A DNA stretch of 64,000 nucleotides from an uncultured Alphaproteobacteria bacterium (GCA_958296285.1 OY282459.1:1604999-1668998), one strand, 5' to 3'; shown: positions 29,847 to 53,950, counted from the first letter of the stretch. Notes: generated by a model from the sequence alone, not told the origin. Numbers and translations: made by a program.

Positions 29847-29861
29847 AAGACAGAGATAGCG

Positions 29862-30200: not shown

Positions 30201-30210
30201 GGCTTGTCTT

Positions 30211-33419: not shown

Positions 33420-33429
33420 GGTTCTGTCT

Positions 33430-36023: not shown

Positions 36024-36439
36024 GCGGATCGCCTTTCCGAGACAAGATCGCTGAGGCGTCTATTTTTGAGATAATCCAGAATATGCCGTCCCAGCCCTGC
36101 CCAGAGATGATGGGCGGCGCAGCGATCTTCTCTGCCCATGCAGGCGAGAATGCCGTCTTCGCGGCAGGCGGTTGTCTTGAAGCGCTCGCCTGCCGAGAGG
36201 ACGATTTCGGAGATTCGTATGTCATTGGGGAGTCGGGTCAGACGGTATCCTCCGCGCGCGCCTCGGACGCTTTCAATGAGTCCGGCCTGTCTGAGTCGGA
36301 CGAAAATCTGTTCCAGATAGGCGAGCGGGATTTGCTGTCGCTGGGCGATTCCTGCGATAGAGATCGGGGCGTGATCGGCGCGTTTCGCGAGATCGGTCAT
36401 AGCGAGAACGGCGTAATGTCCGCGTGTTCCTAGTCTCAT
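36020..36439 (-). CDS. Rrf2-family transcriptional regulator (IscR/SufR-like) heading the suf operon
   Basis: MRLGTRGHYAVLAMTDLA wHTH N-terminus; cluster-ligand Cys triplet ACREDGILACMGREDRCAAH. Start at the internal ATG (36439), because the tracked upstream 22 codons read through the operator palindrome. Confidence 0.8.
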   Translation of the reverse strand: MRLGTRGHYAVLAMTDLAKRADHAPISIAGIAQRQQIPLAYLEQIFVRLRQAGLIESVRGARGGYRLTRLPNDIRISEIVLSAGERFKTTACREDGILACMGREDRCAAHHLWAGLGRHILDYLKNRRLSDLVSERRSA

Positions 36440-36488
36440 AGTTTTCCGCCTTTTTGTGCTATAGTGATGTGGGATATTTCTAGGATAG

Positions 36489-36505
36489 TTGACTTTTTTA
36501 GTCAA
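36489..36505. promoter_or_regulatory. Perfect palindrome TTGACTTTTTTAGTCAA, ~50-65 bp upstream of the Rrf2 start; candidate Rrf2/IscR operator in the suf promoter
   Basis: Exact inverted repeat TTGACT-N5-AGTCAA read directly in the 36440-36568 intergenic region, between divergent genes. Confidence 0.4.
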
Positions 36506-36568
36506 GTTTTAGGGGGGCGCGGGACAGCGCGATCATCTATTGTCAAGGGAGGCTAGCGCGATTGGGAC

Positions 36569-37273
36569 ATGGCGGATGTAATTTTTAATGGTCCTGCGGG
36601 GCGTTTAGAGGGCGATTATCATCATCCTTCGGATGGCGATGGTCGTCTTTATGAGGGTCGGAGCGCGTCTGGCCCTCCGATCGGGTTGGTTTTGCATGCG
36701 CATCCGCGGTCAGGCGGCACGATGCGCGCGCCGTTGGTGGAGGGTCTTTTTCAATCATTAGCGCGGATGGGTTTCGCGGTTTTGCGATTTAATTTTCGGG
36801 GGGTTGGTCGGAGCGAGGGTGTTTTTGACAATGGCTCTGGGGAGTTGTCGGATGCGGCGGCGGCGTTGGACTGGCTTCAATCCTACCATGCGAATCCTTT
36901 GCAATGCTGTGTTTTGGGGCATTCTTTCGGGGCGTGGATTGGGATGCAGTTGCTGATGCGGCGTCCTGAGGTGAATGCTTTTGTCTCGGTTTCGCTTCCT
37001 GCGAATCTCTATGATTTTAGTTTTTTAGCGCCCTGCCCTGCTGCTGGACTTGTTCTGCATGGCGATGAGGACAAGGTTGCGGATCTTCGTTCTGTTCGTT
37101 CTCTTGTGGAGCATCTGAAGAGTCAGAAGGTTGTGGAGATACGTCAGAAGGTGATTGCGGGGGGCGATCATAATTTTGATGATCGGGTTGATGAGATTAC
37201 GCGGGAGGCTCGGGCTTATCTGCATGAGCGTTTAGAGAAGTCTCGGGAGAAGCGCGGCGGTGGTCTTCCTTGA
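36569..37273 (+). CDS. Alpha/beta-fold hydrolase
   Basis: 234 aa; nucleophile elbow GHSFGA, catalytic Asp/His context HGDEDKV ... GGDHNF. Confidence 0.7.
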   Translation: MADVIFNGPAGRLEGDYHHPSDGDGRLYEGRSASGPPIGLVLHAHPRSGGTMRAPLVEGLFQSLARMGFAVLRFNFRGVGRSEGVFDNGSGELSDAAAALDWLQSYHANPLQCCVLGHSFGAWIGMQLLMRRPEVNAFVSVSLPANLYDFSFLAPCPAAGLVLHGDEDKVADLRSVRSLVEHLKSQKVVEIRQKVIAGGDHNFDDRVDEITREARAYLHERLEKSREKRGGGLP

Positions 37274-37305
37274 GGCGGATGGATTTGGGTTTTATGGGTT
37301 AGGGT

Positions 37306-38400
37306 TTATTGGGGTTTGTAGAGTTTTCCGCCTGTGAGTGGTTTGGGCGCGCCTGTTGTTGAGGGGAGGGAGATTGGGAGATTGGCGAGGCTTCTTGCGG
37401 CGAGATAGGCGAAGGCTTGGGCTTCCATCATATCGCCGTTCCATCCGATTTCTTCGGCGGTTTTGAGTGGTTTGGCGAGGGTATTTTGGAGGATTTTGAT
37501 GAGGGATGGATTATGTCGTCCGCCGCCTGTGATGATCCATTGTTTTGGCTCAACGGGGAGATAGTTTTGGGCTGCGGCGATAGTTTTGGCGGTGAGGAGG
37601 GTTAGTGTGGCGGCGCCGTTTTCGGGGGAGAGGTTTTGGACGGGCGTTAGGGAGAAAGTGTTTCTGTCCAGGGATTTTGGGGGAGTTTTTTGGAAATAGG
37701 GATTTTGGAGATATTCCGTGACGGTTTTTTCTTTTGCTTCGCCTATGGCGGCGAGTTTTCCGTTTTGGTCAAGAGGTTTTCCTGTGTGTTGGAGGCACCA
37801 ATCGTTGAGGAGGGCGTTTCCTGGCCCTGTGTCAAAGGCGAGGATTTTGTTTTTGTGGATGTAGGTGATATTGGCGACTCCGCCGATATTGATGATGGCG
37901 CATGGTTCGGCGATTTTGTCTCGTTTGACGAGGGCGTTATGGTAGAGGGGTGCGAGGGGCGCGCCTTCGCCGCCGTGTTTGATGTCGTTTTGTCGGAAGT
38001 CTGCGATGACGTTGATTTTTGTGAGGTTGGCGAGATGTTGAGGGTTTCCGATTTGGGTTGTTTGTTGGGATTGGGGGTTGTGGTGGATTGTTTGTCCGTG
38101 GAATCCGATAAGGATGGGTTTTATTTTTTGGTTTTTGAGGATTTTTTTGATGGTTTTGGCGTGTCGTTTTGTGATGGTTTTTTCTGCGTGGTCGAGGAGT
38201 TTTGGATTGTGTTGTGGGGTTGTTTTGATGAGTTTGTGGAGAGTTTTGCGTGTGGTTTTGCTGTATGGGAGGAAGAGGGTTTTGCCGGGGTTTGCGATGG
38301 TTGTTCCGTTGGTTTGGAGGATAGCGGCGTCTATGCCGTCTAGGGATGTACCGGACATCAATCCGAGGACGTTGATGTTTTGGGGTTTGGGATTAGTCAT
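37306..38400 (-). CDS. anmK: Anhydro-N-acetylmuramic acid kinase
   Basis: 364 aa; VLGLMSGTSLDGIDAAIL N-terminal ASKHA-fold motif and overall AnmK length/architecture. Confidence 0.9.
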   Translation of the reverse strand: MTNPKPQNINVLGLMSGTSLDGIDAAILQTNGTTIANPGKTLFLPYSKTTRKTLHKLIKTTPQHNPKLLDHAEKTITKRHAKTIKKILKNQKIKPILIGFHGQTIHHNPQSQQTTQIGNPQHLANLTKINVIADFRQNDIKHGGEGAPLAPLYHNALVKRDKIAEPCAIINIGGVANITYIHKNKILAFDTGPGNALLNDWCLQHTGKPLDQNGKLAAIGEAKEKTVTEYLQNPYFQKTPPKSLDRNTFSLTPVQNLSPENGAATLTLLTAKTIAAAQNYLPVEPKQWIITGGGRHNPSLIKILQNTLAKPLKTAEEIGWNGDMMEAQAFAYLAARSLANLPISLPSTTGAPKPLTGGKLYKPQ

Positions 38401-38413
38401 GTTGTCTCCAAAA

Positions 38414-38553
38414 GAGGGGGGTCAAGGGGGGCTAGCCCCCCTTGAAAAAAGGGGGTTCGGGGGAAACCCCCGAAAGGTCGGCGGGCGTGGCGCAACGAAG
38501 CAGGCGTAGCCCGAAGGGCAAGCCTGCGAGAAGCCCGCCGACCCCCCTGCCGG
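38414..38553. repeat. Composite REP/MITE-like element, copy R4
   Basis: CAAGGGGGGCTAGCCCCCCTTG palindrome; TTCGGGGGAAACCCCCGAA hairpin; GTCGGCGGGCGTGGCGCAACGAAGC...GCCCGCCGACCCCCC arms. Confidence 0.7.
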
Positions 38554-38573
38554 CATAGCTTGATGCTCGGGCT

Positions 38574-39683
38574 TTATTTTTGACGAGAAGGAAAGTTAAC
38601 AATCAAATCTTTGCCATACTCAATTCCTGCAACCTTACAAGCCTCCATCAAGAATATTACCTTATCTTGAGTGCTACTGTGTGTATCCATATGCCAATCT
38701 CCGATTTGTCTAGGTTGCCGGAAATGGTCTTGCTTCTCACGCCGAGGACAGTTGGTTCTTCGACGACGAAGTCTGAGAGCAAATTGCTCCATGAAGTTTG
38801 GAATCTCATTGTCAAGACGCCGAAGAATTTCCACGAAGGCGTCGACGACTTGCCTATGAATGTGTTTTTCATTCCAGAGGATGTAGAAGATCTGTCCTTC
38901 TTCTTGAGCAACACCTGGCCTGTCTATTTTTCGTGGTGAAAAGACTCTTGCCTCAGTCAATGGAGCAGAGGGTTGCGATGAGGGCTGAGGCCTCAAACTC
39001 TTCAAAAAATTTACGATATCCTCCCTGCTCGGCGCATTGCCAACCCTTTTAGCAACTTCATCAATAAGCTCATCAATAATTGACGTGGTTTCCTTCTCAA
39101 CCATCTCCTTCCAAACGTCAGGAATAGTTCTACGGGCTTCCTCACGGTTTGTCCTTTCTTCAAGATCCTGTCGGGCATTATTTTGAGCACGTTGGGAGAT
39201 AACCTCTTGATGGCTCAGATACCGCCATAGATACTCTGCCGACTCTTCTGGCTCACTGTTAACGATGTTGATGTTGCGTACCAATCTTTCTTTGTATCCG
39301 CCTGTCCTAAAGGTGAGATATACTCGCCATTCTCCTCCATCCGTAAGGAGAGCTAGAAGCGCTCCAGCATCATAAACATATCCGAAAAGCTGTGGCTCAG
39401 CGCCACCAGCTCTTTTATACGCCTTCGCTTCAATGACGACAAAAAGGTTGCCTCTATCAAGCAGAGCATAATCTACATCCCCCCTTCCTCCGCTTTCATT
39501 CCTAAGAGAGTATTCCAGCTCTACTTGTTCCATGTCCTCCGTATTCCATCCTAAAGATCGGAGAATAGGTTCAATAATCCCGGATTTTACCATGGCCTCT
39601 TTCTTGTCATCATAGCGGCCAGATAAAATATCCCTGCGGATTCTTTTCAAAAGTTCAACAAGCGTTTTTTTGTTAGCAGACAT
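38574..39683 (-). CDS. Restriction-endonuclease-like protein with HsdR N-terminal-type PD-(D/E)xK domain (369 aa), in an AT-richer island
   Basis: N-terminus EAMVKSGIIEPILRSLGW ... GDVDYALLDRGNLFVVIEAKAY fits the type I restriction R-subunit N-terminal / Mrr-type nuclease core (D...E-x-K). C-terminal 200 aa uncharacterised. Base composition visibly AT-richer than flanks. Confidence 0.5.
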   Translation of the reverse strand: MSANKKTLVELLKRIRRDILSGRYDDKKEAMVKSGIIEPILRSLGWNTEDMEQVELEYSLRNESGGRGDVDYALLDRGNLFVVIEAKAYKRAGGAEPQLFGYVYDAGALLALLTDGGEWRVYLTFRTGGYKERLVRNINIVNSEPEESAEYLWRYLSHQEVISQRAQNNARQDLEERTNREEARRTIPDVWKEMVEKETTSIIDELIDEVAKRVGNAPSREDIVNFLKSLRPQPSSQPSAPLTEARVFSPRKIDRPGVAQEEGQIFYILWNEKHIHRQVVDAFVEILRRLDNEIPNFMEQFALRLRRRRTNCPRREKQDHFRQPRQIGDWHMDTHSSTQDKVIFLMEACKVAGIEYGKDLIVNFPSRQK

Positions 39684-39780
39684 GTCTTGCCCCTAGCCCT
39701 TCTTGTGCTTCAATAATACGAGCTTTTCGCTACCAATCAAGATGAAGCCATGCGAGCAGGGCAACGGGAACTCCACAAGA

Positions 39781-40155
39781 TCAGCCCCAAAAAGACTTGA
39801 TAAGCAAAGGCAGAATCATCACGACAAGAATCCAAAGAACCGTCTCCACACGCCCCATGCGAACCTCTAAGTTCCCCAACCGTTCATCCATACGCCCCAC
39901 TTGAGCTTCCAAGTTCGTCAGCCGATCCTCCACACGCCCCAACCGATCCTCCACACGCCCCACGCGAGCCTCCACACGCCCCACGCGAGCCTCTATGCTC
40001 ACCGACCGATCATCCAACGAGGAAAGGCGCGTATCCACGCTCCGCTTCCATTCGGCGTCTCTATCTGTCTCAAGAGCGCGAATCGCCGCTGTCGCCTTGT
40101 CGTCAGGGACATTCGCCGCCTTGAAAGCGTCATAAACTTCTACAAGAGACATCAT
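39781..40155 (-). CDS. DUF1640-like coiled-coil membrane protein, paralog 1 (124 aa) with 11-aa/33-bp tandem repeats
   Basis: Conserved N-terminus MMSLVEVYDAFKAANVPDDKATAAIRALET, then RVGRVEARVGRVEDRLGRVEDRL... repeats, then C-terminal TM WILVVMILPLLI. Confidence 0.6.
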   Translation of the reverse strand: MMSLVEVYDAFKAANVPDDKATAAIRALETDRDAEWKRSVDTRLSSLDDRSVSIEARVGRVEARVGRVEDRLGRVEDRLTNLEAQVGRMDERLGNLEVRMGRVETVLWILVVMILPLLIKSFWG

Positions 40156-40206
40156 TCTCCTCCATCATCTATCGTCAAGATTATAGCACATTTTATCGGC
40201 AAAAGC

Positions 40207-40362
40207 TCCTCTAGCAGGGGGCGCGTGGGTGGGTCGCATTTGCTCGCTTCGCGTTGCTTCGCTCGCAAATGCTTTTTTCCCACCCACCCACGCGCTTTCG
40301 GGGGGGATTCCCCCCCGAACCCCCTCTTTTCTTGGGGGGCTAGCCCCCCAAACCCCCCTTAA
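40207..40362. repeat. Composite REP/MITE-like element, copy R5 (module D inverted repeat + hairpin + B palindrome)
   Basis: GGGGGCGCGTGGGTGGGTCGCATTTGCTCGCTTCGCG..CTCGCAAATGC..CCCACCCACCCACGCGC, then TTCGGGGGGGATTCCCCCCCGAA, then CTTGGGGGGCTAGCCCCCCAA. Near-identical to 45829-45965. Confidence 0.7.
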
Positions 40363-40381
40363 CGGGAGCATGTCAAGCCCG

Positions 40382-41680
40382 TCAGCGCCCCGTCGGCAAA
40401 TCCCGAAACGGCTTCGCCTTATCAACCCGAATGTCCGCAGGCATCCCCAAAACACGCTCCGCAACAATGTTCCGCAAAATCTCATCCGTCCCGCCAGCAA
40501 TCCGAAAGCCCGCCGCCCAAATCCACTGCTGCTGAAACGCCGCCCCAAAAGGCGACAACTCCCCATCACTGACAACCCCTGCCATATCCTGCATCTCCAT
40601 CGCGAAAGCGCCAATGTCCTGCATCTTCCGCGCCGAAACAATCTTAATGATGGAACTCTCCGGCCCCGGCGTCTCGCCCTTGGAAAGAGCGGTGAGCGTC
40701 CGCATCTTGGTATATTTCAAGCCCTGACTCTCCGCATACCACTCGGCGATCTTGGCGCGAATGTGCGCGTCTTTGACGGCAGGCCCATTCTCGGTCTCCA
40801 GATCGCGGGCGATCTCCAGCAGATCGCCGGCATCGGCGCTCTCGCCCATGCCGACCGCGAGACGCTCATTCATCAAGGTCGTCAAGGCGACCTTCCAGCC
40901 CTCGCCGACTTCGCCGAGCCTCTGACTGTCAGGAATCCGGACATCATTAAAGAAGACCTCGTTGAAATTGCTGCCTCCCGACATCTGCTTGATCGGACGC
41001 ACCTCCACGCCCGGCGCATGCATATCCAAGAAGAAGAAGGTCAAGCCGCGATGCTTCGGCTGATCAGGATCGGATCGCGCGACAATGATGCCGTAATCGG
41101 AGAAATGCGCGCCCGAAGTCCAAACCTTCTGCCCGTTCAAGATCCAATCGTCCCCGTCTCGCTTGACTCGGCTTCGTATCCCTGCGACATCCGATCCCGC
41201 CGCGGGCTCTGAGAAGAGCTGACACCAGATTTCCTCGCCATAAAGGGCGGGTTTGACGTATCGCGTCAGGGTTTCCTTGTCGGCATAGGCGATGAGGGTT
41301 GGGATGCACATGCCGAGTCCGATTTCAAAATATCCTCGCGGCAGATGATATTTGGCTTCTTCCTGATTGTAGATGACGGATTGTATGGCGGTACCGCCCA
41401 TGCCTCCATAGTCTTTGGGCCAAGTGATGGCGGCGTATCCTGCGGCGGCTTTTTTCTTCTGCCATTTTTTGGCTCTGGCGAGTCCATCGGCTTCGGACTC
41501 TCGGGTTTCGGCGCGCGCGGCTTTGAGATTGTCGGCGTCTTTGGGCTTGGCGTTTTGATTGAGGAAGTCGCGGACTTTTTTACGGAAGGCGGCTTCTTGG
41601 GGTGTGTCGTTGAGGTGCATGATGGTTCTCCTTATGCGACGTTTTTCATTTCTAGGAGTCGGACGAGTCTCTCTTTCCAC
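40382..41680 (-). CDS. Acyl-CoA dehydrogenase family protein
   Basis: 432 aa; ACAD N-terminal/middle/C-terminal domain motifs (..GSDVAGIRSRVKRDGDDWILNGQKVWTSG..). Confidence 0.85.
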   Translation of the reverse strand: MERETRPTPRNEKRRIRRTIMHLNDTPQEAAFRKKVRDFLNQNAKPKDADNLKAARAETRESEADGLARAKKWQKKKAAAGYAAITWPKDYGGMGGTAIQSVIYNQEEAKYHLPRGYFEIGLGMCIPTLIAYADKETLTRYVKPALYGEEIWCQLFSEPAAGSDVAGIRSRVKRDGDDWILNGQKVWTSGAHFSDYGIIVARSDPDQPKHRGLTFFFLDMHAPGVEVRPIKQMSGGSNFNEVFFNDVRIPDSQRLGEVGEGWKVALTTLMNERLAVGMGESADAGDLLEIARDLETENGPAVKDAHIRAKIAEWYAESQGLKYTKMRTLTALSKGETPGPESSIIKIVSARKMQDIGAFAMEMQDMAGVVSDGELSPFGAAFQQQWIWAAGFRIAGGTDEILRNIVAERVLGMPADIRVDKAKPFRDLPTGR

Positions 41681-42753
41681 CTTCGCTGCGCGCCGATGAC
41701 GAGAGAGAGTGTTCTAGCGCGGCGATAGAAGAGTTGGCAATCGGATTCCCATGTGAATCCGATTCCGCCATGGGTTTGGACGTTTTCTTGGGCGGCGAAG
41801 ATGAAGGCGTCTGACGCGCTGATTCTGGCGGTTGCGGCGGCGATGGCGAGGTCGGCGCTTTCTTCTTGGCTTCCGAGCGTCATAGCGGCGTAATAGCAGT
41901 TGGATCGGGCGAGTTGGTTTTTGACGTAGATATTGGCGAGTTTATGTTTGATGGCTTGGAAGGATCCGATGGGTCTGCCGAAAGCGAATCGTTCTCTAGC
42001 GTAAGTTTGGGCCATTTCCAGGGCTGCGTCCGCGCCGCCGAGTTGCTCAAAGGCGAAGAGGACGGCGGATCGGTTGAGGATTCTGTCCATCATTTCTTCG
42101 GCTTTGTCGCCTTCGGCGAGGATTTCGGCGGGCGCGTCGTGGAAGGTGATTGTGGCGTATTTTCGGCTTGGGTCTATTGTTCTGACATTTTGGCGCTTGA
42201 CGTTTGGCGTGTTGGCATCGGCGAGGATGATGACGGCTTGGTCTTTTTTATTTTTGGCGGTTGTGATGACGAAGTTCGCGCTCATTCCGTCGGGGACGGG
42301 CATTTTTGTTCCTGAGAGTTTATGTCCGTCAAAGGCTGTATTTGTGTTGGCGAAGGTTGGCGCGCCGGCTTTTTCGGAGAAGGCGAAGGTTCCGATAGCC
42401 TCGCCTGAGGCGAGTTTAGGGAGCCAATGTTTTTTGGCGTTTTCGTTTTGCGTGGCTTTGAGGGTTTCTGCGGCGACATAGATGCTAGAGGAGAAGGGGA
42501 CGGGTGCGAGCGCGCGTCCGAGTTCTTCTGCGATGACGCAGAGTTCCAGCATATTCATATTGGTTCCGCCGTATTTTTCGGGGATTGCGGCGCCGAGGAG
42601 TCCCATATTGGCGAGTTGGTTCCAGAGTTTGGTGTTGTGCGTTTTGTTGGATTCCAGGATTTCGCGGACTGCCGTGAGCGGGCAATGGTCGGCGAGCATT
42701 TTGCGCGTTTGATCGCGGAGGATTTTTTGGTCGTCTGAGAAGTCTAGGTTCAC
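41632..42753 (-). CDS. Acyl-CoA dehydrogenase family protein (second, adjacent)
   Basis: 373 aa ACAD fold (..YARERFAFGRPIGSFQAIKHKLANIY..). Forms a tandem ACAD pair with the upstream gene. Exact start/overlap uncertain. Confidence 0.82.
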   Translation of the reverse strand: MNLDFSDDQKILRDQTRKMLADHCPLTAVREILESNKTHNTKLWNQLANMGLLGAAIPEKYGGTNMNMLELCVIAEELGRALAPVPFSSSIYVAAETLKATQNENAKKHWLPKLASGEAIGTFAFSEKAGAPTFANTNTAFDGHKLSGTKMPVPDGMSANFVITTAKNKKDQAVIILADANTPNVKRQNVRTIDPSRKYATITFHDAPAEILAEGDKAEEMMDRILNRSAVLFAFEQLGGADAALEMAQTYARERFAFGRPIGSFQAIKHKLANIYVKNQLARSNCYYAAMTLGSQEESADLAIAAATARISASDAFIFAAQENVQTHGGIGFTWESDCQLFYRRARTLSLVIGAQRRWKERLVRLLEMKNVA

Positions 42754-42766
42754 TGTCGGCGTTCTT

Positions 42767-43213
42767 TCAGGCGAGGATTGCGCGGAGCAAGACTCCTGTT
42801 ATGAGGAGCAGGCAGACGGTGTTGAGGATCATATTTGCTCTGCCCATCCATTCCAGCCGTGCCATATGGATTCGGATTTCCCCGATTTCCCTATGCATTT
42901 CGTCTTGGAGTTCATGGATTTTGTTTTCCACTGCTATGATTCGGTCTTCCACTTTTCCGATGCGCTCTTCCACTTTTCTGATGCGCTCTTCCACCACTAT
43001 GATTCGGTCTTCCACTTTTCCGATGCGCTCTTCCATTTTTCCGATGCGTTCTTCCACTTTTCCGATGCGGTCATCCATTTGTCCGATGCGGTCTTCTATT
43101 CGCCGCAGACGTTGTTCGTCTCGGTTGGTTTCCAGGGCTTCTACGGCTGCGGTGGCTTTATCGTCATCCACGTTAGCGGCTTTGAAGGCGTTATAGACTG
43201 CGACAAGGCTCAT
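42767..43213 (-). CDS. DUF1640-like coiled-coil membrane protein, paralog 2 (148 aa) with ~8 copies of a 33-bp repeat
   Basis: MSLVAVYNAFKAANVDDDKATAAVEALET, then EDRIGQMDDRIGKVEERIGKMEERIGKVEDRIIVVEERIRKVEERIGKVEDRIIAVENKI, then TM ILNTVCLLLITGVLLRAILA. Confidence 0.6.
   Translation of the reverse strand: MSLVAVYNAFKAANVDDDKATAAVEALETNRDEQRLRRIEDRIGQMDDRIGKVEERIGKMEERIGKVEDRIIVVEERIRKVEERIGKVEDRIIAVENKIHELQDEMHREIGEIRIHMARLEWMGRANMILNTVCLLLITGVLLRAILA
42925..43110. repeat. 33-bp in-frame tandem repeat array inside DUF1640 paralog 2
   Basis: Plus-strand shadow ORF reads MRSSTFPMRSSTFLMRSSTTMIRSSTFPMRSS... with strict 11-codon periodicity. The DNA shows repeated TTCCACTTTTCCGATGCGCTCTTCCA-type units. 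Confidence 0.65.
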
Positions 43214-43320
43214 GGATTGTCTCCCTGTTTATCTCCCTGTGATATGGGGAGATAGCGAGAGTCTAGCGGTTTTTTCTCTGTCTCGCAAGAGTTCTTGCGA
43301 TGCGGGGGGGCTTGTGGGGA

Positions 43321-43563
43321 TTAGGAGGCGAGATTAATCAGGATAGCGCCTGTCAGGGTTAGATTTGCCATGACAAGAACGATGAGGGTTCCGACCATCC
43401 ATTTCAACAAGACGATATCGGCTTCCACTTTGGCGATGCGGTCTTCCATTCTACGCTTCCATGGCTCGTCTAGGCTGGTTTCTATGGCTTTGACGGCTTC
43501 TGTGGCTTTGGTTTGATCCACATTGGCGGCTCTGAGAGCGTCATAGACTGCGACAAGGCTCAT
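43321..43563 (-). CDS. DUF1640-like membrane protein, paralog 3 (80 aa, repeat-less form)
   Basis: MSLVAVYDALRAANVDQTKATEAVKAIETSLDEPWKRRMEDRIAKVEADIVLLKWMVGTLIVLVMANL. Same N-terminus and upstream region as the gene at 42767-43213. Confidence 0.55.
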   Translation of the reverse strand: MSLVAVYDALRAANVDQTKATEAVKAIETSLDEPWKRRMEDRIAKVEADIVLLKWMVGTLIVLVMANLTLTGAILINLAS

Positions 43564-43670
43564 GGATTGTCTCCCTGTTTCTCTCCCTAGAATACAGCGA
43601 GCCTAGCGGTTTTCTCTCTGTCTCGCAACCATTCTTGCGATGCGGGGGGCGAGGCGGCAGGGTCATCTCG

Positions 43671-44150
43671 CTAGAAGCAGAAGCTAAAATGTCCGTCAAA
43701 ATCAATCTTGAGAGACCCATGCATGATAATGTCCATGCCTACAAGAACGTCAAAGGGGAGATTTCTTCCCGCGTCAAAGTCCAATCCCTCAATTGGAGGA
43801 AAGGGGAAAAGGATTCTGCCCTCCTCTTCCCCGGACGGGTTAATGCCCGTCCCCATAGGCAGCCCGAGAGCGAAGAGATATTGTTGTCTTGGGGTCGTTC
43901 CGGATGCCGAGACCATCTCCATCATGCCCCTGGCTTGCAACCCGACCTCTTCGGCGACTTTTGGAGAGATGCATGTGCGAGAGGCTCCTGTATCCAATAA
44001 GCCGCGATAAGGTCTCATGCCTTTGGGCGGAGTCCGCATAGGAGAGGCGTCTTTTTTTTGGGCGAGGTCAGAAATGATTTTCGGCTCAGAGATAACAACG
44101 GTCAGAATAGCCCCTGTCCCTTTTTGGCAGTTACCCGACAGGCACGACAT
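43671..44150 (-). CDS. Retropepsin-like (clan AA) aspartic protease
   Basis: YRGLLDTGASRTCIS contains the D-T-G-A catalytic motif with hydrophobic-hydrophobic-D-T-G spacing. C-terminal DVLVGMDIIMHGSLKIDF is the flap/dimerisation-type segment. Confidence 0.65.
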   Translation of the reverse strand: MSCLSGNCQKGTGAILTVVISEPKIISDLAQKKDASPMRTPPKGMRPYRGLLDTGASRTCISPKVAEEVGLQARGMMEMVSASGTTPRQQYLFALGLPMGTGINPSGEEEGRILFPFPPIEGLDFDAGRNLPFDVLVGMDIIMHGSLKIDFDGHFSFCF

Positions 44151-44499
44151 GCGAATAGAAGCCTAGGTCTACAGGGACATCGGTGATTTCCTGCACGGAG
44201 AAGATATCGTCATCATAAAGGAGTTTTCCTGTGCGCTCGGCGTCTAGGGCTGTGGAATAAACGGCGATCAGTTTTTCCCCGCGCAGCAGAGCGTGCTGGT
44301 TGCGATACTCCTTGAGAAGTTTGGGGAGCATTTTTTTGAATGCCTCGTAGTTTTTGCGGATTTCTTCGTCTCTATCTTTTCCGAGAGAGGCTATTTTCGC
44401 GTCATCAGACATTTTTGCCCTTTCCGTAGCTTTCTGCAGCTTCCTGTAGAATGTGGCTTTCCCTTGCGCGAGGCATTGTTTGATTTTAGCGCTCTCCAT
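44131..44499 (-). CDS. Hypothetical 122-aa protein co-transcribed upstream of the retropepsin-like protease
   Basis: 20-nt overlap with the downstream gene; charged helical protein with no known motif. Confidence 0.4.
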   Translation of the reverse strand: MESAKIKQCLAQGKATFYRKLQKATERAKMSDDAKIASLGKDRDEEIRKNYEAFKKMLPKLLKEYRNQHALLRGEKLIAVYSTALDAERTGKLLYDDDIFSVQEITDVPVDLGFYSHVVPVG

Positions 44500-44539
44500 A
44501 GATCATGTCCATATGCTTACCCTTCTTGCATGAGATCAA

Positions 44540-44617
44540 GCGAGGCGGGGGGTCGGCGGGCGCAAGCCTGCGAGAAACCGCTCGTGGCGTAGCCTGCCTA
44601 CCCTCTTGCTCGCAGGA
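44540..44617. repeat. REP/MITE-like element, copy R6 (short)
   Basis: GGGGGGTCGGCGGGCGCAAGCCTGCGAGAA...CTCGTGGCGTAGCC...CTCTTGCTCGCAGG. Confidence 0.55.
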
Positions 44618-44618
44618 A

Positions 44619-45680
44619 CTATAATAGCTCTTCTGGCGGTATTCCCGCTTTCAAGAGCATTTTTACAAATTCCATGCCGTTAATCAGAAATACCCCTTCC
44701 TCCTCGGCAAGTTTGCGGCAATCTTCAGTAAAAGCGTTTGCCGAGCTTATAACCCAAGCAGAGAAAGAAGAGTCATCATCTTGTTGATCTTTCCTGTAAT
44801 CACTCACCTGTTTAACAGCCTCTTCGTCGGTTTCCGTGTTTCTTGGGAAAAACTTAACCTGCACGTAAATAACGTGCTTCATTGGTTCAAAAATTGCGAC
44901 AACATCGGCATCACCCGTTTTATCCCCTTTGTTCTGTGGAGGCATATCAACCGCTGTCGCTCCGATTTTCTTTAAGTAAAGAGCAACAAGTTTCTCGAAC
45001 TTTTTGGGATTGAGATTCTTCACTATCCAATTCAGAACCGGGTTGGCCAGCTCTTCAAGCAACTCCTCTGAGAGTCTTGTAGGTCTGCTTTCCCTAAATC
45101 TAGCCAGCGCCTCTTCAATGCTGTCTTTTACATTATTCACGAAGAGATTTACCCATTTACTCTTCATCTTTGCCGTGAGAGCAGCATCTGCATAATCCCA
45201 TTTTGAGATTCCTTTGGCGATGGTGCTCACTTTCCAATAGAACCCAAGATCAAACTGTTTATCGCTTCTATAGAGCTTGCCATCTCGAATCTCCAAACCG
45301 AGATTACTTAGAGCGCTAGACTCAGAAGCGTCCAAATTGGAAATCGGATGTGGGCCCGAAACCAGCTCATAAATTGAAAATTCATGTCCATAGGGACTTG
45401 GAACTAAAACGCAATCTCCCTTTTTGAAATCAGCGAGAAAATACCACAGCCCCCATGCCCATCTTCGGAATTCAACATACGCCTCTTTAATCTTCCTGCG
45501 AAACAACTCTTCTCTCTTGTCCTCGGATTCACTCGCCAAAATCTCGGCAATAAAGGATTGCGTTGAAAGAGATTGATGCCCAAATCCGATGGTCAGAATG
45601 CTGCCTTCATTCAAAAGAGGCACAGATGCCTCTCGCTCATGCTTAATCCTATGTAGCCAATAATTCCTTTCTTCTGCCAT
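44619..45680 (-). CDS. Mrr-type (type IV-like) restriction endonuclease with N-terminal putative modified-DNA-recognition domain
   Basis: C-terminal GDADVVAIFEPMKHVIYVQVKF ... VISSANAFTEDCRKLAEEEGVFLINGMEFVKML resembles the Mrr_cat PD-(D/E)xK core. AT-richer region. Confidence 0.55.
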   Translation of the reverse strand: MAEERNYWLHRIKHEREASVPLLNEGSILTIGFGHQSLSTQSFIAEILASESEDKREELFRRKIKEAYVEFRRWAWGLWYFLADFKKGDCVLVPSPYGHEFSIYELVSGPHPISNLDASESSALSNLGLEIRDGKLYRSDKQFDLGFYWKVSTIAKGISKWDYADAALTAKMKSKWVNLFVNNVKDSIEEALARFRESRPTRLSEELLEELANPVLNWIVKNLNPKKFEKLVALYLKKIGATAVDMPPQNKGDKTGDADVVAIFEPMKHVIYVQVKFFPRNTETDEEAVKQVSDYRKDQQDDDSSFSAWVISSANAFTEDCRKLAEEEGVFLINGMEFVKMLLKAGIPPEELL

Positions 45681-45746
45681 TTTGCCTGCCCTCCAATGTT
45701 TCTAGCGGATATTCATTGTATTATATCCCCCGCTTCTCATTTATTC

Positions 45747-45970
45747 AAGCGAGCAGGGGGGTGCGGGGGGTGCGACACCCCCCGCGAAAAAACAAGGCGG
45801 GCATAGCCCGCCTATGACTCTTGCGAGCAGGGGGCGCGTGGGTGGGTCGCATTTGCTCGCTTCGCGTGCTTCGCTCGCAAATGCTTTTTTCCCACCCACC
45901 CACGCGCTTTCGGGGGGATTCCCCCGAACCCCCTTTTTTCAAGGGGGGCTAGCCCCCCTTGACCCCCCTT
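45747..45970. repeat. Composite REP/MITE-like element, copy R7 (extra GC hairpins + module D + hairpin + B palindrome)
   Basis: GGGGGGTGCGGGGGGTGCGACACCCCCCGCG; GGCGGGCATAGCCCGCC hairpin; CTCTTGCGAGCAGGGGGCGCGTGGGTGGGTCGC...CCCACCCACCCACGCGC (module D); TTCGGGGGGATTCCCCCGAA; CAAGGGGGGCTAGCCCCCCTTG. Confidence 0.7.
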
Positions 45971-45993
45971 TACGGGAGATTCAATCCTAGCCG

Positions 45994-46536
45994 TTAACGA
46001 TCTCGGCGCTCGCGGCGGCGCTCCTGCCACCTCTTACGCCTCTCGCCGATTTCCTCGCTCGCCTCGCCAAGAGCCTCAGCAAGCTCGCGCCGCTCCTCAA
46101 GACTCAAGCCTCCAAGAATATCCACGACATCGCCCCAGCCCCTCCGCAAAACGCGCTCGCCAGAATCCACAACCCGCGATTGCGCCCGATCCAAAATGGC
46201 GGCGGCAGCATCCTTATCAAACGACTCTTGCCGAAGCGCGGCGGCGAGATTCTTCAAAGCGCCCGCTGTCTCACGAGACGCCATATCGCGGAGGTCTCGC
46301 ATCTCGCCGCGCCGCGCCCTGAATTTCTTTCGGAGTTCCTTGCGCGCGTCATCAGGCACGGCATGGACAATGGCGCGCATCTCTCCGCCAAAGCCCCGAT
46401 GGGAGCCGATGCGGAAAGTCGCGTAAGCGCCAACGACAAAAAGATTGATCGCCAACGACACAATGAGTCCGCCAAGAATCCATTTCTGACGGCGTTCTTT
46501 TTTCCTCTGCGGATCTGCGGGATTGATGTCGGTCAT
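45994..46536 (-). CDS. Periplasmic Spy/CpxP-like protein (third gene of ECF sigma operon)
   Basis: N-terminal TM WILGGLIVSLAINLFVVGAYA, then a helical Arg/Glu-rich domain. Confidence 0.45.
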   Translation of the reverse strand: MTDINPADPQRKKERRQKWILGGLIVSLAINLFVVGAYATFRIGSHRGFGGEMRAIVHAVPDDARKELRKKFRARRGEMRDLRDMASRETAGALKNLAAALRQESFDKDAAAAILDRAQSRVVDSGERVLRRGWGDVVDILGGLSLEERRELAEALGEASEEIGERRKRWQERRRERRDR

Positions 46537-46570
46537 GGTTTTTCTCCTTGGTTGAGGGTTTTTGAGGGTT

Positions 46571-46942
46571 TTAGAGTTCCAGCGGGTCTGACGGATTCAG
46601 CGCATCCGCGATGAAACCGACAGGGGATCGCTCCGCCTCGTCAAAGAGGAGGAAGGGGAGATTATCAGGCTCTTCGGCGAAGGGCATCGCGCCGGCTGCC
46701 TGAAGCGCGACTCCGAGCAGAAAAGACGCCGCCAAGAGAGCGCCGCGCGTCCAAAAGTTTGGCGCGGGCGCGCGGAAGCGGAGGGCGGCGAGAGGGGCGG
46801 GAGCGGGGGATTTTTCCGCTTGGACTTGCCTGAGGATTCTCGCCTTGAGCGCCTCCGAAGGGGGCGGGACATTAGACGTCTCTCGCATCAGCGAAGAGAT
46901 GGCGTCATGGGGTCTGTTGGGATTTTTGAGGATTCCGCTCAT
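46571..46942 (-). CDS. Putative anti-sigma factor (single-pass membrane)
   Basis: 123 aa; central TM ALLAASFLLGVALQAAGA. Sits immediately downstream of the ECF sigma gene with a 4-bp gap. Confidence 0.5.
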   Translation of the reverse strand: MSGILKNPNRPHDAISSLMRETSNVPPPSEALKARILRQVQAEKSPAPAPLAALRFRAPAPNFWTRGALLAASFLLGVALQAAGAMPFAEEPDNLPFLLFDEAERSPVGFIADALNPSDPLEL

Positions 46943-46945
46943 GGT

Positions 46946-47554
46946 CTAACCCTTCGCGGCGCGATGAGTCTGCGGCGCTTTTTCAAGATGGAGGATATGT
47001 TGGAGTTTTCGGCGCAGATTTTTTTTCGCGCGCGCGAGGAGGGATTCCACCGCCTCTATGCTGAGATGGAGGGTTCGGGCGATTTGCGCCTGTTTCATCT
47101 CCCAGTCATAGAAGAGAATGACGGCTTCGCGCTGTCGTTCTGGGAGTTCTTGCAGGGCTTTTCGGACGGATTTTTCGCGCTCGCGGATTTCCATTTGGGC
47201 GAGGACGTTTTCGCGGGGATCGGGGATAGCGAGGAGCGCGTCAGGGTCTTCATATCGGCGCTTTCGGGTTCGGTTCGCGTCTCTGCAAAGATTGATGGCG
47301 ATGGCGGAGATCCATATTTTGGGCGTTCCGGCTTTTGGGGAGAAGCTGCGGGCGCTCTTCCAGATTCGGAGGAAACTTTCCTGCGCGATATCTTCGGCGA
47401 GGATGGGGTCGCCTGTCATTCGGCGGGCGAGGGCGTGGATCGGGGCGAGATATCTATTCATCAGCGCGGCATAGGCGTTTTGGTCGCCATGGGCGATGGC
47501 GATCATAAGATTTTCGTCTTGGCTATTTTTCGCTTTTTTTGCGGCGGTCGGCAT
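46946..47554 (-). CDS. RNA polymerase ECF-type sigma-70 family factor
   Basis: Region 2 (IAQESFLRIWKSARSF) and region 4 HTH (QREAVILFYDWEMKQAQIARTLHLSIEAVESLLARAKKNL). Confidence 0.85.
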   Translation of the reverse strand: MPTAAKKAKNSQDENLMIAIAHGDQNAYAALMNRYLAPIHALARRMTGDPILAEDIAQESFLRIWKSARSFSPKAGTPKIWISAIAINLCRDANRTRKRRYEDPDALLAIPDPRENVLAQMEIREREKSVRKALQELPERQREAVILFYDWEMKQAQIARTLHLSIEAVESLLARAKKNLRRKLQHILHLEKAPQTHRAAKG

Positions 47555-47632
47555 AGTTGGTTCCTTTTTTGCCCTATCACTCTTTACTACGCGGGAGGTT
47601 TGAGAATCCGTCTCCTTTTTATTTTTAGGAGA

Positions 47633-53495: not shown

Positions 53496-53551
53496 TATTG
53501 CCGAAACAGAAAAAAGCCTTTACAATCCATGCAACCGCGAGGAGATGAATC

Positions 53552-53809: not shown

Positions 53810-53950
53810 AAGAGCTCTTGGCGTTGGGGGGTCGGCGGGCGTGGCGCAACGAAGCGGGCGCAGCGCGTAGCCACTCGTGGCGTAGCGCAAGCCCGCGAGA
53901 AGCCACTCGTGGCGTAGCCCGCCGACCCCCCCTGCTCGCAAGAGTCTTGA
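53810..53950. repeat. REP/MITE-like element, copy R9 with clear terminal inverted repeats
   Basis: AGAGCTCTTGGCGTTGGGGGGTCGGCGGGC ... GCCCGCCGACCCCCCCTGCTCGCAAGAGTCTTG. Confidence 0.7.

What the first reader, a model, noticed from the sequence alone, without database searches (positions are those of the whole stretch)
38400..46000. AT-richer 7.6-kb accessory block resembling a defence island but lacking integrase or transposase
Between anmK and the ECF sigma operon, base composition drops visibly. Gene content switches to an HsdR_N-type PD-(D/E)xK nuclease-like protein (38574-39683), DUF1640 paralogs, a retropepsin-like protease with a small partner, and an Mrr-type restriction endonuclease (44619-45680). 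Only the two acyl-CoA dehydrogenases look housekeeping. Every junction carries a REP/MITE-like element. No integrase, transposase or tRNA target is visible. Acquisition or maintenance is therefore probably mediated by the repeat family itself or by homologous recombination.
Basis: partly seen in the sequence, partly recalled or inferred. Interest (0 to 1): 0.55.

Follow-up and report, generated by a model that had tools for sequence, protein, structure and literature searches.

The report
Two strain-variable nuclease slots, not one island
The "7.6-kb island" is really two small gene slots on either side of a conserved pair of metabolic genes; closely related strains carry different genes there, mostly DNA-cutting defence-type enzymes, and they appear to be swapped by ordinary recombination rather than by a mobile element, which is a known kind of hotspot.

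Summary
Partly confirmed. The named genes are present. The block is the lowest-GC 7.6-kb stretch of the window (0.520 vs 0.548). The whole dip comes from two genes: the HSDR_N-type nuclease (GC 0.449) and the Mrr-type nuclease (GC 0.437). Without them the block is 0.551.

It is not one island. In three related alphaproteobacterial MAGs the order Metal_resist/ECF – ACAD_S – ACAD_L – anmK is contiguous. So the acyl-CoA dehydrogenase pair is ancestral core, and it separates two insertion sites: 38401-40381 and 42754-45993.

Two sister strains (96.6-99.6% identical in aligned core DNA) show both sites are strain-variable:
- In one strain only the Mrr gene body (44553-45656) is replaced, by a distantly homologous type IV Mrr-like gene (hhalign 97.5%, 19% identity). 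Promoter and first 8 codons are retained.
- In the other, the HSDR_N gene is replaced by a Sel1-repeat gene, and slot 2 holds a PDDEXK_4 nuclease.

The Mrr protein models as a reader domain plus nuclease resembling MspJI/AspBHI.

No integrase, transposase or tRNA lies in the block. Lineage-specific REP-like hairpin arrays sit at 4 of 9 junctions.

Best reading: core-genome defence hotspots, or "minimal mobile elements", exchanged by homologous recombination. This is a new member of a known kind.

The parts
37306..38400 (-). anmK, core gene flanking slot 1
   Evidence: PF03702 AnmK on the identical gene in the sister strain. Orthologue directly abuts ACAD_L in L006, L021 and L038.
38405..38560 (.). 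REP-like mosaic array of three stacked GC-rich hairpins; low-coordinate boundary of slot 1
   Evidence: Repeat family. Sequence. ssDNA fold -47.4 kcal/mol, z -6.8. Homology with strain L082 ends at 38552.
38553..39780 (.). Slot 1 variable segment: HSDR_N nuclease gene here and in L081; a Sel1-repeat gene in L082
   Evidence: blastn breakpoints. L082:8872-9789 hits Sel1 repeats, 1.7e-77.
38574..39683 (-). Stand-alone PD-(D/E)xK nuclease (HSDR_N type, motif D71...E85-x-K87) with a conserved C-terminal domain weakly similar to the SeqA DNA-binding domain; low GC 0.449
   Evidence: Pfam HSDR_N 31.8 bits. Only 8 homologues besides itself among 5.8e9 clusters, best 31% identity. Invariant D/E/K in alignment A7. 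Family profile vs PDB: HsdR 3h1t E 7e-4; SeqA C-domain E 0.034. GC z -2.2.
39781..40155 (-). cc124: small DUF1640-like protein (N-terminal MSLVxVYDA motif, heptad coiled coil encoded by 21-nt tandem repeats, C-terminal TM helix); present in all three strains
   Evidence: (family D4).
40200..40375 (.). REP-like array immediately downstream of the ACAD_L stop; 93% identical to 45826-45978 and inverted relative to 38417-38463
   Evidence: (D15, I12).
40382..41620 (-). Acyl-CoA dehydrogenase, large (pimC-like); core gene
   Evidence: Pfam and NCBIfam. 80 orthologous loci; adjacent to anmK in L006, L021 and L038.
41632..42753 (-). Acyl-CoA dehydrogenase, small (pimD/IpdE2-like); core gene
   Evidence: paired with ACAD_L in 77 of 80 loci.
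42753..45777 (.). Slot 2 variable segment relative to strain L082, which carries a PDDEXK_4/HSDR_N_2 nuclease and an inverted cc paralogue instead
   Evidence: blastn. Gene table. Pfam.
42767..43213 (-). cc148, DUF1640-like coiled-coil/TM paralogue with 8 x 21-nt tandem repeats
   Evidence: (D1).
43321..43563 (-). cc80, minimal DUF1640-like paralogue (N-terminal motif + LLKWM + TM helix)
43671..44150 (-). Retropepsin-like aspartic protease (DTGA motif)
   Evidence: Asp_protease_2 31.4 bits. PADLOC PDC-M08B 8e-6, partial. Intact in L081.
44131..44499 (-). Small partner ORF overlapping the protease start by 20 nt. The real start is probably the M at 44412, giving 93 aa as called in L081. Weak DUF5678 similarity.
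   Evidence: Promoter-like site 44511-44483.
44553..45656 (.). The only non-homologous segment between the window and sister strain L081: the Mrr gene body from codon 9 plus 66 nt of 3' hairpin
   Evidence: blastn. Junction alignments A1 and A2.
44619..45680 (-). Mrr-type, probably modification-dependent (type IV) restriction endonuclease: N-terminal reader-like domain + C-terminal Mrr_cat (D257/D259...Q274-x-K276); GC 0.437
   Evidence: Pfam Mrr_cat 48.2 bits. PADLOC PDC-S02 3e-10, mREase_IV 4e-5. AF2 pLDDT 93.5. Foldseek MspJI 2.5e-6, AspBHI 7e-6; weaker YTH-domain hits at E 3e-3 and above. Nearest homologues 47% identity, one of them in Polaribacter (Bacteroidota).
45720..45748 (-). Sigma-70-like promoter (TTGAAT-17-TATAAT, 10/12) for the slot 2 nuclease; conserved together with the RBS and first 8 codons in L081 although the ORF body differs
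45745..45978 (.). REP-like arrays downstream of the Metal_resist gene, including a terminator-like hairpin + T-run at 45813-45795(-); high-coordinate boundary of slot 2
   Evidence: z -7.6.
45994..46536 (-). Metal_resist-domain protein, last gene of the ECF sigma operon; core gene flanking slot 2
   Evidence: Pfam. Directly precedes ACAD_S in L038.

Best explanation
The region is two adjacent core-genome variable slots, not one island. This is the kind of locus called a core defence hotspot, or a 'minimal mobile element'.

Layout (shown):
- The ancestral arrangement is ECF-sigma operon – ACAD_S – ACAD_L – anmK.
- In this lineage, a ~1.73-Mb alphaproteobacterial genome, the two intergenic gaps on either side of the ACAD pair have been filled.
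- Slot 1 (38401-40381) holds a DUF1640-like gene and a rare stand-alone HSDR_N-type PD-(D/E)xK nuclease.
- Slot 2 (42754-45993) holds two DUF1640-like genes, a retropepsin-like protease with a small overlapping partner, and an Mrr-type nuclease with its own promoter.
- The contents differ between strains that are 96.6-99.6% identical in aligned core DNA.

Inferred function:
- The Mrr-type protein is a solitary modification-dependent (type IV) restriction enzyme. Its N-terminal domain would read a modified base in incoming DNA and its Mrr_cat domain would cut.
- The HSDR_N protein may work the same way through a SeqA-like C-terminal domain. This is a weak lead.

Inferred mechanism of turnover:
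- DNA from another strain enters the cell by transformation, transduction or a gene-transfer agent. Which route was not determined.
- It then replaces the resident cassette by double crossover in the conserved flanks: core genes and lineage-specific REP-like arrays.
- The first entry of a foreign allele may have used microhomology, for example the conserved NYW codons at the 5' end of the two Mrr-like alleles.
- No dedicated recombinase is needed.
For: Synteny:
- In L006, L021 and L038, ACAD_L abuts or slightly overlaps anmK (gaps of at most 18 bp). In L038, ACAD_S follows the Metal_resist gene closely. There are no extra genes.

Strain L081:
- 99.56% identical over window 27306-44552 and 98.1% over 45657-48504.
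- Only 44553-45656 is non-homologous, with base-sharp junctions.
- The replacement, P0136, is called 'restriction endonuclease type IV Mrr domain' by UniRef for its homologues.
- It is a distant full-length homologue of the window protein: hhalign 97.5%, E 6.5e-12, 290 columns, 19% identity.

Strain L082:
- Slot 1 carries a Sel1-repeat gene.
- Slot 2 carries a PDDEXK_4/HSDR_N_2 nuclease plus an inverted cc paralogue.
- The core flanks are 96.6-98.3% identical.

Recombination signature:
- SNPs are mosaic: 3.5 kb with zero differences, next to patches of 95-97% identity.

Foreign origin:
- The two nuclease genes are the GC/GC3 outliers.
- The nearest Mrr homologues are 47% identical; the named ones are Bacteroidota and Firmicutes.

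Defence role:
- PADLOC PDC-S02 and mREase_IV hits.
- Fold matches to MspJI and AspBHI, with weaker YTH-domain matches.
- A homologue lies in a Polaribacter defence island with a KAP NTPase, a WYL regulator and a type I R-M system.

Same pattern elsewhere:
- In the window, a type II R-M islet at 53.9-57.0 kb is bounded by inverted REP arrays.
- A DUF4760 cassette is present or absent between strains, with breakpoints inside REP arrays.

Known concept:
- cDHS in P. aeruginosa (PMC10250203).
- MMEs in Neisseria (PMC1797815).
Against: - Only three strains could be compared.
- No enzyme activity or phage phenotype is known.
- Slot contents are not all defence-like: a Sel1-repeat protein, DUF1640-like proteins and the protease pair have no assigned role.
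- PADLOC finds nothing for the HSDR_N protein. The SeqA similarity is marginal, E 0.034.
- The route of DNA entry is unknown.
- The rest of the genome, which might encode a RAYT or another recombinase, could not be inspected.
- The replacement allele's own model matches restriction-nuclease folds only weakly, and its N-terminal domain matches no reader domain.
Confidence: 0.72

Rival explanations
1. The lineage-specific REP-like arrays are the mobile agent. Cassettes bounded by inverted arrays would be moved between intergenic sites by a REP-associated (RAYT-type) transposase encoded elsewhere, or the arrays would serve as portable recombination sites.
For: - Inverted array pairs bracket four accessory segments in the window: 24.6/27.9 kb, 27.9/28.7 kb, 38.4/40.3 kb and 53.3/57.2 kb.
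- The DUF4760 presence/absence breakpoints lie inside arrays, and the empty site keeps a back-to-back array pair.
- A ~58-nt module is 97-98% identical at three different cassette borders in the window and in L082, more than the usual 80-93% between copies.
- The arrays are absent from 80 related loci, so they arose in this lineage.
Against: - In the cleanest swap the 5' junction is after codon 8 of the ORF, not at an array. The arrays upstream stay in place whatever the cargo.
- Slot 2 has no array at its ACAD_S end.
- No transposase or RAYT lies in the 64-kb window among the ORFs scanned.
- No target-site duplications were seen.
- REP-type repeats accumulate passively in non-essential intergenic DNA.
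Confidence: 0.13
2. One reading: one 7.6-kb horizontally acquired defence island inserted between anmK and the ECF sigma operon.
For: - The stretch is the lowest-GC 7.6-kb window of the 64 kb.
- Inverted REP arrays at 38405-38502 and 45882-45979 bracket it (I2).
Against: - The ACAD pair in the middle is orthologous and syntenic with anmK and the ECF operon in relatives.
- Its GC is 0.561.
- Strain differences map to two separate sub-segments, never to the whole block.
Confidence: 0.03
3. The slot genes are not defence genes. They would be selfish or decaying hitch-hikers, or have cellular roles such as repair nucleases or envelope proteins, and the strain differences would reflect differential loss rather than exchange.
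For: - There is no PADLOC hit for the HSDR_N protein, the small partner or the cc proteins.
- One allele in slot 1 is a Sel1-repeat protein.
- The HSDR_N homologue P0128 sits among housekeeping genes.
Against: - Replacing one Mrr-like gene with a 19%-identical homologue at the same promoter is substitution, not loss.
- The ORFs and catalytic motifs are intact.
- The Mrr family shows a defence-island context elsewhere.
Confidence: 0.1

Closest known systems
Core defence hotspots (cDHS) of Pseudomonas aeruginosa (Johnson et al. 2023, PMC10250203)
   Same: - Variable, lower-GC, defence-rich content sits between conserved core marker genes.
- It is not attributable to any mobile-element class.
- Homologous recombination through the conserved flanks is proposed as the transfer route.
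   Different: - The slots here are tiny: one to five genes, 2-3 kb, against a median of 26 kb.
- There are two of them, separated by a two-gene core operon.
- They are bounded by lineage-specific REP-like arrays.
- The genome is a ~1.7-Mb uncultured alphaproteobacterium.
- Only three strains were compared.
Minimal mobile elements (MMEs) of Neisseria (Saunders & Snyder 2002; Bentley et al. 2007, PMC1797815), including the low-GC drg endonuclease at the leuS/dam locus (PMC4269198)
   Same: - One to three alternative genes occupy the same syntenic site in different strains.
- There are no mobility genes.
- Many are restriction systems.
- Exchange is by recombination in the flanking genes.
- Intergenic repeat arrays lie nearby.
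   Different: - Natural competence is not known for this organism.
- The repeats are unrelated to Correia/dRS3 elements.
- One swap keeps the resident promoter and first 8 codons.
MspJI/AspBHI-type and Mrr-type modification-dependent (type IV) restriction enzymes
   Same: - Two-domain layout: N-terminal reader-like domain plus C-terminal PD-(D/E/Q)xK nuclease.
- No partner methyltransferase.
- Foldseek E 2.5e-6 and 7e-6; Mrr_cat 48 bits.
   Different: - Sequence identity to MspJI and AspBHI is 11-14%.
- The N-terminal domain also resembles YTH m6A readers, weakly (E 3e-3 and above).
- Specificity and activity are untested.
REP/BIME (and REPIN) intergenic palindromic repeats
   Same: - Short GC-rich hairpin modules combined in mosaics.
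- Strictly intergenic, many copies, often immediately after stop codons.
   Different: - No Rfam family matches.
- No RAYT was seen in the window.
- In this window the copies cluster only beside accessory cassettes.
Type I restriction enzyme HsdR
   Same: The N-terminal PD-(D/E)xK nuclease domain is shared: Pfam HSDR_N, and PDB 3h1t at E 7e-4.
   Different: - No helicase/ATPase motor and no HsdM/HsdS partners.
- Only 369 aa, with an unrelated C-terminal domain.

Membership tests
Classical integrase-mediated genomic island | Integrase or recombinase gene at one end | tested here: not met
   All nine genes of 38.4-46.0 kb were scanned with Pfam, NCBIfam, PADLOC and PHROGs. None is a recombinase.
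Classical integrase-mediated genomic island | Insertion at a tRNA/tmRNA gene with flanking direct repeats | tested here: not met
   The only hit is a tmRNA at 11.3 kb. The flanking repeats are inverted arrays of a dispersed family.
Classical integrase-mediated genomic island | One contiguous foreign segment absent from relatives | tested here: not met
   The ACAD pair inside the block is syntenic core in L006, L021 and L038.
Core defence hotspot / minimal mobile element | Same conserved flanking core genes in all strains | tested here: met
   anmK, the ACAD pair and the Metal_resist/ECF genes are 96.6-99.6% identical in three strains.
Core defence hotspot / minimal mobile element | Different gene content at the same site in different strains | tested here: met
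   Slot 1: HSDR_N nuclease vs Sel1-repeat protein. Slot 2: Mrr-like A vs Mrr-like B vs PDDEXK_4.
Core defence hotspot / minimal mobile element | No mobility genes in the variable segment | tested here: met
Core defence hotspot / minimal mobile element | Content dominated by defence systems | tested here: inconclusive
   Three nuclease alleles are restriction-type: Mrr_cat/PDC-S02, the replacement allele (Mrr_cat only E 0.065; its homologues are named 'type IV Mrr domain' by UniRef) and PDDEXK_4. The Sel1, DUF1640-like and protease-pair genes have no defence assignment.
Type IV (modification-dependent) restriction endonuclease, Mrr family | Mrr_cat PD-(D/E/Q)xK domain with catalytic residues | tested here: met
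   PF04471 at 48.2 bits. D257, D259, Q274 and K276 are invariant in 44 homologues.
Type IV (modification-dependent) restriction endonuclease, Mrr family | Separate domain that reads a modified base | tested here: inconclusive
   A high-confidence model (pLDDT 93.5) matches whole-chain MspJI and AspBHI. The N-terminal domain matches YTH domains at E 3e-3 to 5e-2. No binding pocket was analysed.
Type IV (modification-dependent) restriction endonuclease, Mrr family | No cognate methyltransferase next to it | tested here: met
   The neighbours are the small ORF and the Metal_resist gene.
Type IV (modification-dependent) restriction endonuclease, Mrr family | Cleaves only modified DNA | not testable with these tools
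   Needs biochemistry.
Type I restriction enzyme R subunit (HsdR) | SF2 helicase/translocase motor domains | tested here: not met
   Only HSDR_N (residues 53-123) is found in 369 aa.
Type I restriction enzyme R subunit (HsdR) | Adjacent hsdM and hsdS genes | tested here: not met
   The neighbours are anmK and cc124.
DUF1640 / CCDC90-like (PF07798) | Match to the Pfam model | tested here: inconclusive
   The window proteins give no hit. 5 of 36 homologues hit, best 3e-7. The layout is shared: N-terminal helix, coiled coil, LLKWM motif, TM helix.
Retropepsin-like aspartic protease (clan AA) | Pfam match above cut-off and a D-T/S-G-A catalytic motif | tested here: met
   Asp_protease_2 at 31.4 bits vs 24.3; motif LLDTGASR.
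PADLOC candidate system PDC-M08 | Both components A and B present | tested here: not met
   B matches only partially at 8e-6. The partner ORF has no PADLOC hit even at E<=0.05.
REP/BIME-type repeats | Multi-copy intergenic GC-rich imperfect palindromes in mosaic arrays | tested here: met
   About 11 sites in 64 kb, all intergenic. Fold z-scores of -3.8 to -7.6 for four of the five arrays tested; the short 44553-44618 module is not significant, z -0.7.
REP/BIME-type repeats | Cognate RAYT transposase in the genome | not testable with these tools
   Only 64 kb plus two ~21-kb sister loci were available.
Integron | IntI integrase, attI, and same-orientation promoterless cassettes each ending in attC | tested here: not met
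   No integrase. The Mrr cassette has its own promoter-like site. The repeats occur in both orientations.

The most novel reading that the evidence does not exclude
The lineage-specific REP-like hairpin arrays, perhaps together with the DUF1640-like genes found at the edge of three nuclease-bearing slots, could form an integrase-independent cassette system. The arrays would act as portable homology or recombination sites. They would let single defence genes hop between many intergenic slots, both within a genome and between strains of a streamlined genome that lacks conventional mobile elements.
Probability: 0.1. Interest if true: 0.75.

Novelty: new member of a known kind. Interest (0 to 1): 0.4.

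Why it matters
- It shows at base-pair resolution how a small, mobile-element-poor genome of an uncultured alphaproteobacterium turns over its restriction genes. One type IV nuclease is swapped for a 19%-identical homologue under the same promoter, in strains that are otherwise 99.5% identical.
- It extends the 'core defence hotspot' / 'minimal mobile element' picture to a new lineage and to single-gene scale.
- It flags two little-studied nuclease families for testing:
  - a reader-plus-Mrr family with fold matches to MspJI and AspBHI;
  - a very rare HSDR_N nuclease with a possible SeqA-like domain.
- For annotation, it warns that a low-GC 'island' can be two independent slots around core genes.

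Tried and rejected
- Exact look-ups of several window proteins (ACAD_S, P0001, Metal_resist) found no contig. The sister strains were reached through cluster members of anmK.
- The genome-contig scan found no genome closer than 71% aa identity for ACAD_L, so the species itself is not in that collection.
- The JGI metagenome scan for the retropepsin found no relative.
- tblastn of the Mrr and retropepsin proteins against plasmids and phages gave nothing, apart from one weak hit in an unannotated 5-kb phage contig.
- Rfam matched only the tmRNA, so the repeats are not a described RNA family.
- PDB sequence search for the Mrr protein gave nothing. Only fold search helped.
- PADLOC, PHROGs and NCBIfam gave no usable assignment for the HSDR_N protein beyond 'endonuclease', and none for the small partner.
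- The many coiled-coil hits of cc124 and cc148 (SMC, JetC, LmuB, XhlA and others) were rejected as compositional.
- The L082 PDDEXK_4 nuclease is not a detectable homologue of the window HSDR_N protein by BLASTP.
- The antisense 280-aa gene call over the ECF sigma gene in L081 is an artefact. The sigma ORF is intact.
- Literature searches for DUF1640, DUF5678 and PDC-M08 gave nothing relevant to bacteria.

Full report
**Observation**

- ORF 38574-39683(-) matches Pfam HSDR_N (31.8 bits, cut-off 25.1).
- ORF 44619-45680(-) matches Mrr_cat (48.2 bits).
- ORF 43671-44150(-) matches Asp_protease_2, and a small ORF overlaps its start by 20 nt.
- ORFs 40382-41620 and 41632-42753 are acyl-CoA dehydrogenases of the pimC/pimD type.
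- ORF 45994-46536 is a Metal_resist protein, at the end of an ECF sigma operon.
- No tRNA is near. The only hit is a permuted alpha-type tmRNA at 11.3 kb.

The nine genes fill the block, and none is a recombinase.

**Composition**

The block has GC 0.520 against 0.548 for the window. It is the lowest-GC 7.6-kb stretch of the 64 kb, in the bottom 3.3% of sliding windows.

The drop is not block-wide.
- Per gene, only the two nuclease genes are outliers. The HSDR_N gene has GC 0.449, z -2.2, GC3 z -2.8. The Mrr gene has GC 0.437, z -2.4, GC3 z -2.3.
- All other genes lie within 1.25 SD. The ACAD pair is at 0.561.
- Without the two nuclease genes the block is 0.551.

**Not one island**

A scan of species-representative genomes with ACAD_L returned 80 loci, with at most 71% amino-acid identity. 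A tblastn of the window's proteins against these loci showed two things.
- ACAD_S and ACAD_L are paired in 77 of the 80.
- Three alphaproteobacterial MAGs (L006, L021, L038) have ACAD_S – ACAD_L – anmK – hydrolase – Rrf2 – suf genes in the window's order. L021 and L038 also have GlnE and the ECF sigma gene upstream. The Metal_resist gene was detected only in L038.

ORF maps of L038 and L006 show tight packing. In L038 the genes are Metal_resist 8185-8745, ACAD_S from 8752 or 8872, ACAD_L 10001-11227 and anmK 11224-12324.

The ACAD pair is therefore ancestral core. The window has two separate insertions.
- A: 38401-40381, carrying cc124 and the HSDR_N nuclease.
- B: 42754-45993, carrying cc148, cc80, the protease pair and the Mrr gene.

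**Strain comparison**

The window's Mrr protein is on record on a 1,733,000-bp contig. Cluster look-ups revealed two sister assemblies, which were fetched as L081/L083 (a 1,723,605-bp contig) and L082 (104,530 bp).

*L081*
- It is 99.56% identical to window 27306-44552 and 98.1% identical to 45657-48504.
- The only non-homologous stretch is window 44553-45656.
- Junction alignments are base-sharp. Upstream, the promoter-like site (TTGAAT-17-TATAAT at 45748-45720), the RBS and the first 8 codons (MAE[E/K][R/K]NYW) are shared. The ORF bodies are then unalignable. Homology resumes 66 nt after the window gene's stop codon.
- The replacement, P0136 (339 aa), has 627 homologues, the closest about 50% identical. 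UniRef names two Bacteroidota homologues (Lacihabitans, Capnocytophaga) 'Restriction endonuclease type IV Mrr domain-containing protein'. Another homologue is from Defluviitoga.
- Profile-profile comparison with the window protein's family gives 97.5% probability, E 6.5e-12, over 290 columns at 19% identity. The slot therefore holds two deeply divergent members of one architecture.

*L082*
- It is 96.6-98.3% identical in the core.
- Window 38553-39780 (the HSDR_N gene) is replaced by a Sel1-repeat protein.
- Window 42753-45777 is replaced by a PDDEXK_4/HSDR_N_2 nuclease plus an inverted cc paralogue.
- cc124 and the ACADs are retained.

*Other variation and SNP pattern*
- A third polymorphism lies outside the finding. 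The DUF4760 cassette (window 27841-28765) is absent from L082, and its breakpoints lie inside REP arrays.
- SNPs between the window and L081 are mosaic. There are none in 38500-42000, but 95-97% identity in patches at 36.5-37.0, 46.0-47.0 and 49.0-49.7 kb. This is the signature of frequent homologous recombination.

**The proteins**

*Mrr-like protein*
- The AF2 model has pLDDT 93.5.
- It matches the modification-dependent enzymes MspJI (E 2.5e-6) and AspBHI (7e-6). Its C-terminal domain matches Mrr-like and archaeal nuclease folds. Its N-terminal domain matches YTH m6A-reader domains more weakly, at E 3e-3 and above.
- PADLOC gives PDC-S02 (3e-10) and mREase_IV (4e-5).
- D257, D259, Q274 and K276 are invariant in 44 homologues.
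- The nearest homologues are 47% identical. One lies in Polaribacter pacificus (Bacteroidota). More distant named ones include Bacteroidales, Hymenobacter, Acetobacterium and Romboutsia.
- In Polaribacter the homologue sits in a defence island with a KAP NTPase, a WYL regulator and a type I R-M system. In another genome it is a solitary insert.
- I infer a solitary type IV restriction enzyme. Its activity is untested.

*Replacement allele (P0136)*
- The model of P0136 (pLDDT 88.6) matches restriction-nuclease folds only weakly.

*HSDR_N protein*
- It has an intact D...E-x-K motif but no helicase domains and no HsdM/HsdS partners, so it is not a type I HsdR.
- Its family is very rare: 8 homologues besides itself among 5.8 billion clusters, the best 31% identical.
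- A family profile matches HsdR (3h1t, E 7e-4) at the N-terminus. It matches the SeqA DNA-binding domain marginally but collinearly at positions 241-360 (E 0.034). Four of the six hits are SeqA.
- This is a lead, not a result. It suggests a methyl-GATC-directed nuclease.

*Coiled-coil (cc) proteins*
- They share an N-terminal MSLVAVYDA...KATAA motif, a heptad coiled coil encoded by 21-nt tandem repeats, an LLKWM motif and a TM helix.
- The family is small: 39 representatives at E<=1e-3 among 1.84 billion.
- The window members do not reach PF07798, but 5 of 36 homologues do. The DUF1640 label is therefore only partly supported.
- A fourth paralogue (53552-53809, + strand) lies at the edge of a type II R-M islet.

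*Retropepsin-like protein*
- It has an intact DTGA motif in both strains that carry it.
- It gives only a partial PDC-M08B hit. Its partner has no PADLOC hit and only weak DUF5678 similarity.

**The repeats**
- A mosaic family of GC-rich hairpin modules, with cores such as GGGGGGCTAGCCCCCC, occurs at about 11 intergenic sites in the window. All lie in three accessory regions: 24.6-28.8, 38.4-46.0 and 53.3-57.4 kb.
- Within the block they sit at 38405-38560, 40200-40375, 44553-44618 and 45745-45978. That is 4 of 9 junctions, not every one.
- Three of these four arrays fold far better than shuffles (z -3.8 to -7.6). The short 44553-44618 module does not (z -0.7).
- They match no Rfam family.
- They are absent from 1.3 Mb of related loci, so they are lineage-specific.
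- Inverted pairs bracket several cassettes. In the cleanest swap, however, the 5' junction lies inside the ORF, and the arrays stay put regardless of cargo.

**Interpretation**

The best-supported reading is two core-genome variable slots that flank a conserved operon.
- They are filled with horizontally acquired genes, mainly restriction-type nucleases.
- They are exchanged between strains by homologous recombination in the conserved flanks.
- The shared promoter and first 8 codons, and the conserved NYW motif in both Mrr-like families, suggest one allele originally entered by a crossover at microhomology. This is an inference.

This is what has been described as core defence hotspots in P. 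aeruginosa. Those are bounded by conserved flanking markers, have lower GC, belong to no obvious MGE class, and recombination through the flanks is proposed (PMC10250203). It is also what has been described as minimal mobile elements in Neisseria. Those are one to three alternative genes at syntenic sites, and many are R-M systems (PMC1797815). One example is the low-GC drg endonuclease locus (PMC4269198).

A repeat-driven mechanism (RAYT or array-mediated cassette shuffling) is not excluded. It has some circumstantial support, but it could not be tested without the whole genome.

**Verdict**

- The phenomenon is a new member of a known kind.
- Interest is moderate. It rests on the base-pair-resolution allele swap, the association of repeats with the slots, and two little-known nuclease families.

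Noticed in passing
window 53255-57365: Another low-GC islet (0.499) bracketed by inverted REP-like arrays (53255-53476 and 57098-57365). It holds a DUF1640-like paralogue (53552-53809, +), a type II restriction enzyme (53951-54574; His-Me/EndoVII; PADLOC REase_II 4e-50), its N6/N4 methyltransferase (54564-55382), and a methyltransferase-HNH fusion (55521-56990).
   Followed up: partly
window 27841-28765 (gene 28053-28565, -): A low-GC DUF4760 gene flanked by inverted REP-like arrays. It is present in the window and in L081 but absent from strain L082, where the two arrays lie back to back. The breakpoints are inside the arrays.
   Followed up: yes
window 59590-60897 (+) and 61403-61993 (+): A second N6_N4 methyltransferase-HNH fusion. 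It is followed, after a bPH_2-domain ORF, by the lowest-GC ORF of the window (GC 0.404, z -3.2), which has no Pfam hit. This is probably another accessory patch.
   Followed up: no
window 24817-25953 and 25968-27716 (-): Two adjacent ORFs (378 and 582 aa) with no Pfam family; both have only a very weak Josephin-like C-terminal hit at E about 0.2. They lie between inverted REP-like arrays at 24604-24785 and 27840-27993.
   Followed up: no
window 11262-11639 (+): A permuted (two-piece) alphaproteobacterial tmRNA with tag peptide ANDNYADARLAA. The genes just upstream (9893-11217) are slightly low in GC.
   Followed up: no
window 1-9300: Long, diverged tandem repeats with a period of about 1.2-1.5 kb, in many direct-repeat families. 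They suggest a very large repetitive surface or adhesin-type gene.
   Followed up: no
window 38574-39683, residues ~241-360: The C-terminal domain of the HSDR_N nuclease family aligns collinearly, but only marginally (E 0.034), with the SeqA hemimethylated-GATC-binding domain. A nuclease-SeqA fusion could be a methyl-directed enzyme.
   Followed up: partly
window 36000-49700 vs L083: The SNP pattern between the two ~99.5%-identical strains is strongly mosaic. There are 3.5 kb with no difference (38500-42000), next to 500-bp patches of 95-97% identity (36.5-37.0, 46.0-47.0, 49.0-49.7 kb). This implies frequent recombination in the population.
   Followed up: partly
window 45755-45812; L082 5034-5067 and 9789-9846: A ~58-nt double-hairpin module is 97-98% identical at three different cassette borders in two strains. 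That is more similar than other copies of the repeat family, and it hints at recent repeat-associated rearrangement.
   Followed up: partly
window 37306-38400 and other core genes on the - strand: Core genes show a strong strand composition bias: + strand GC skew up to +0.6 and AT skew down to -0.6 in anmK. The two nuclease genes and ACAD_L have the opposite skew sign.
   Followed up: no
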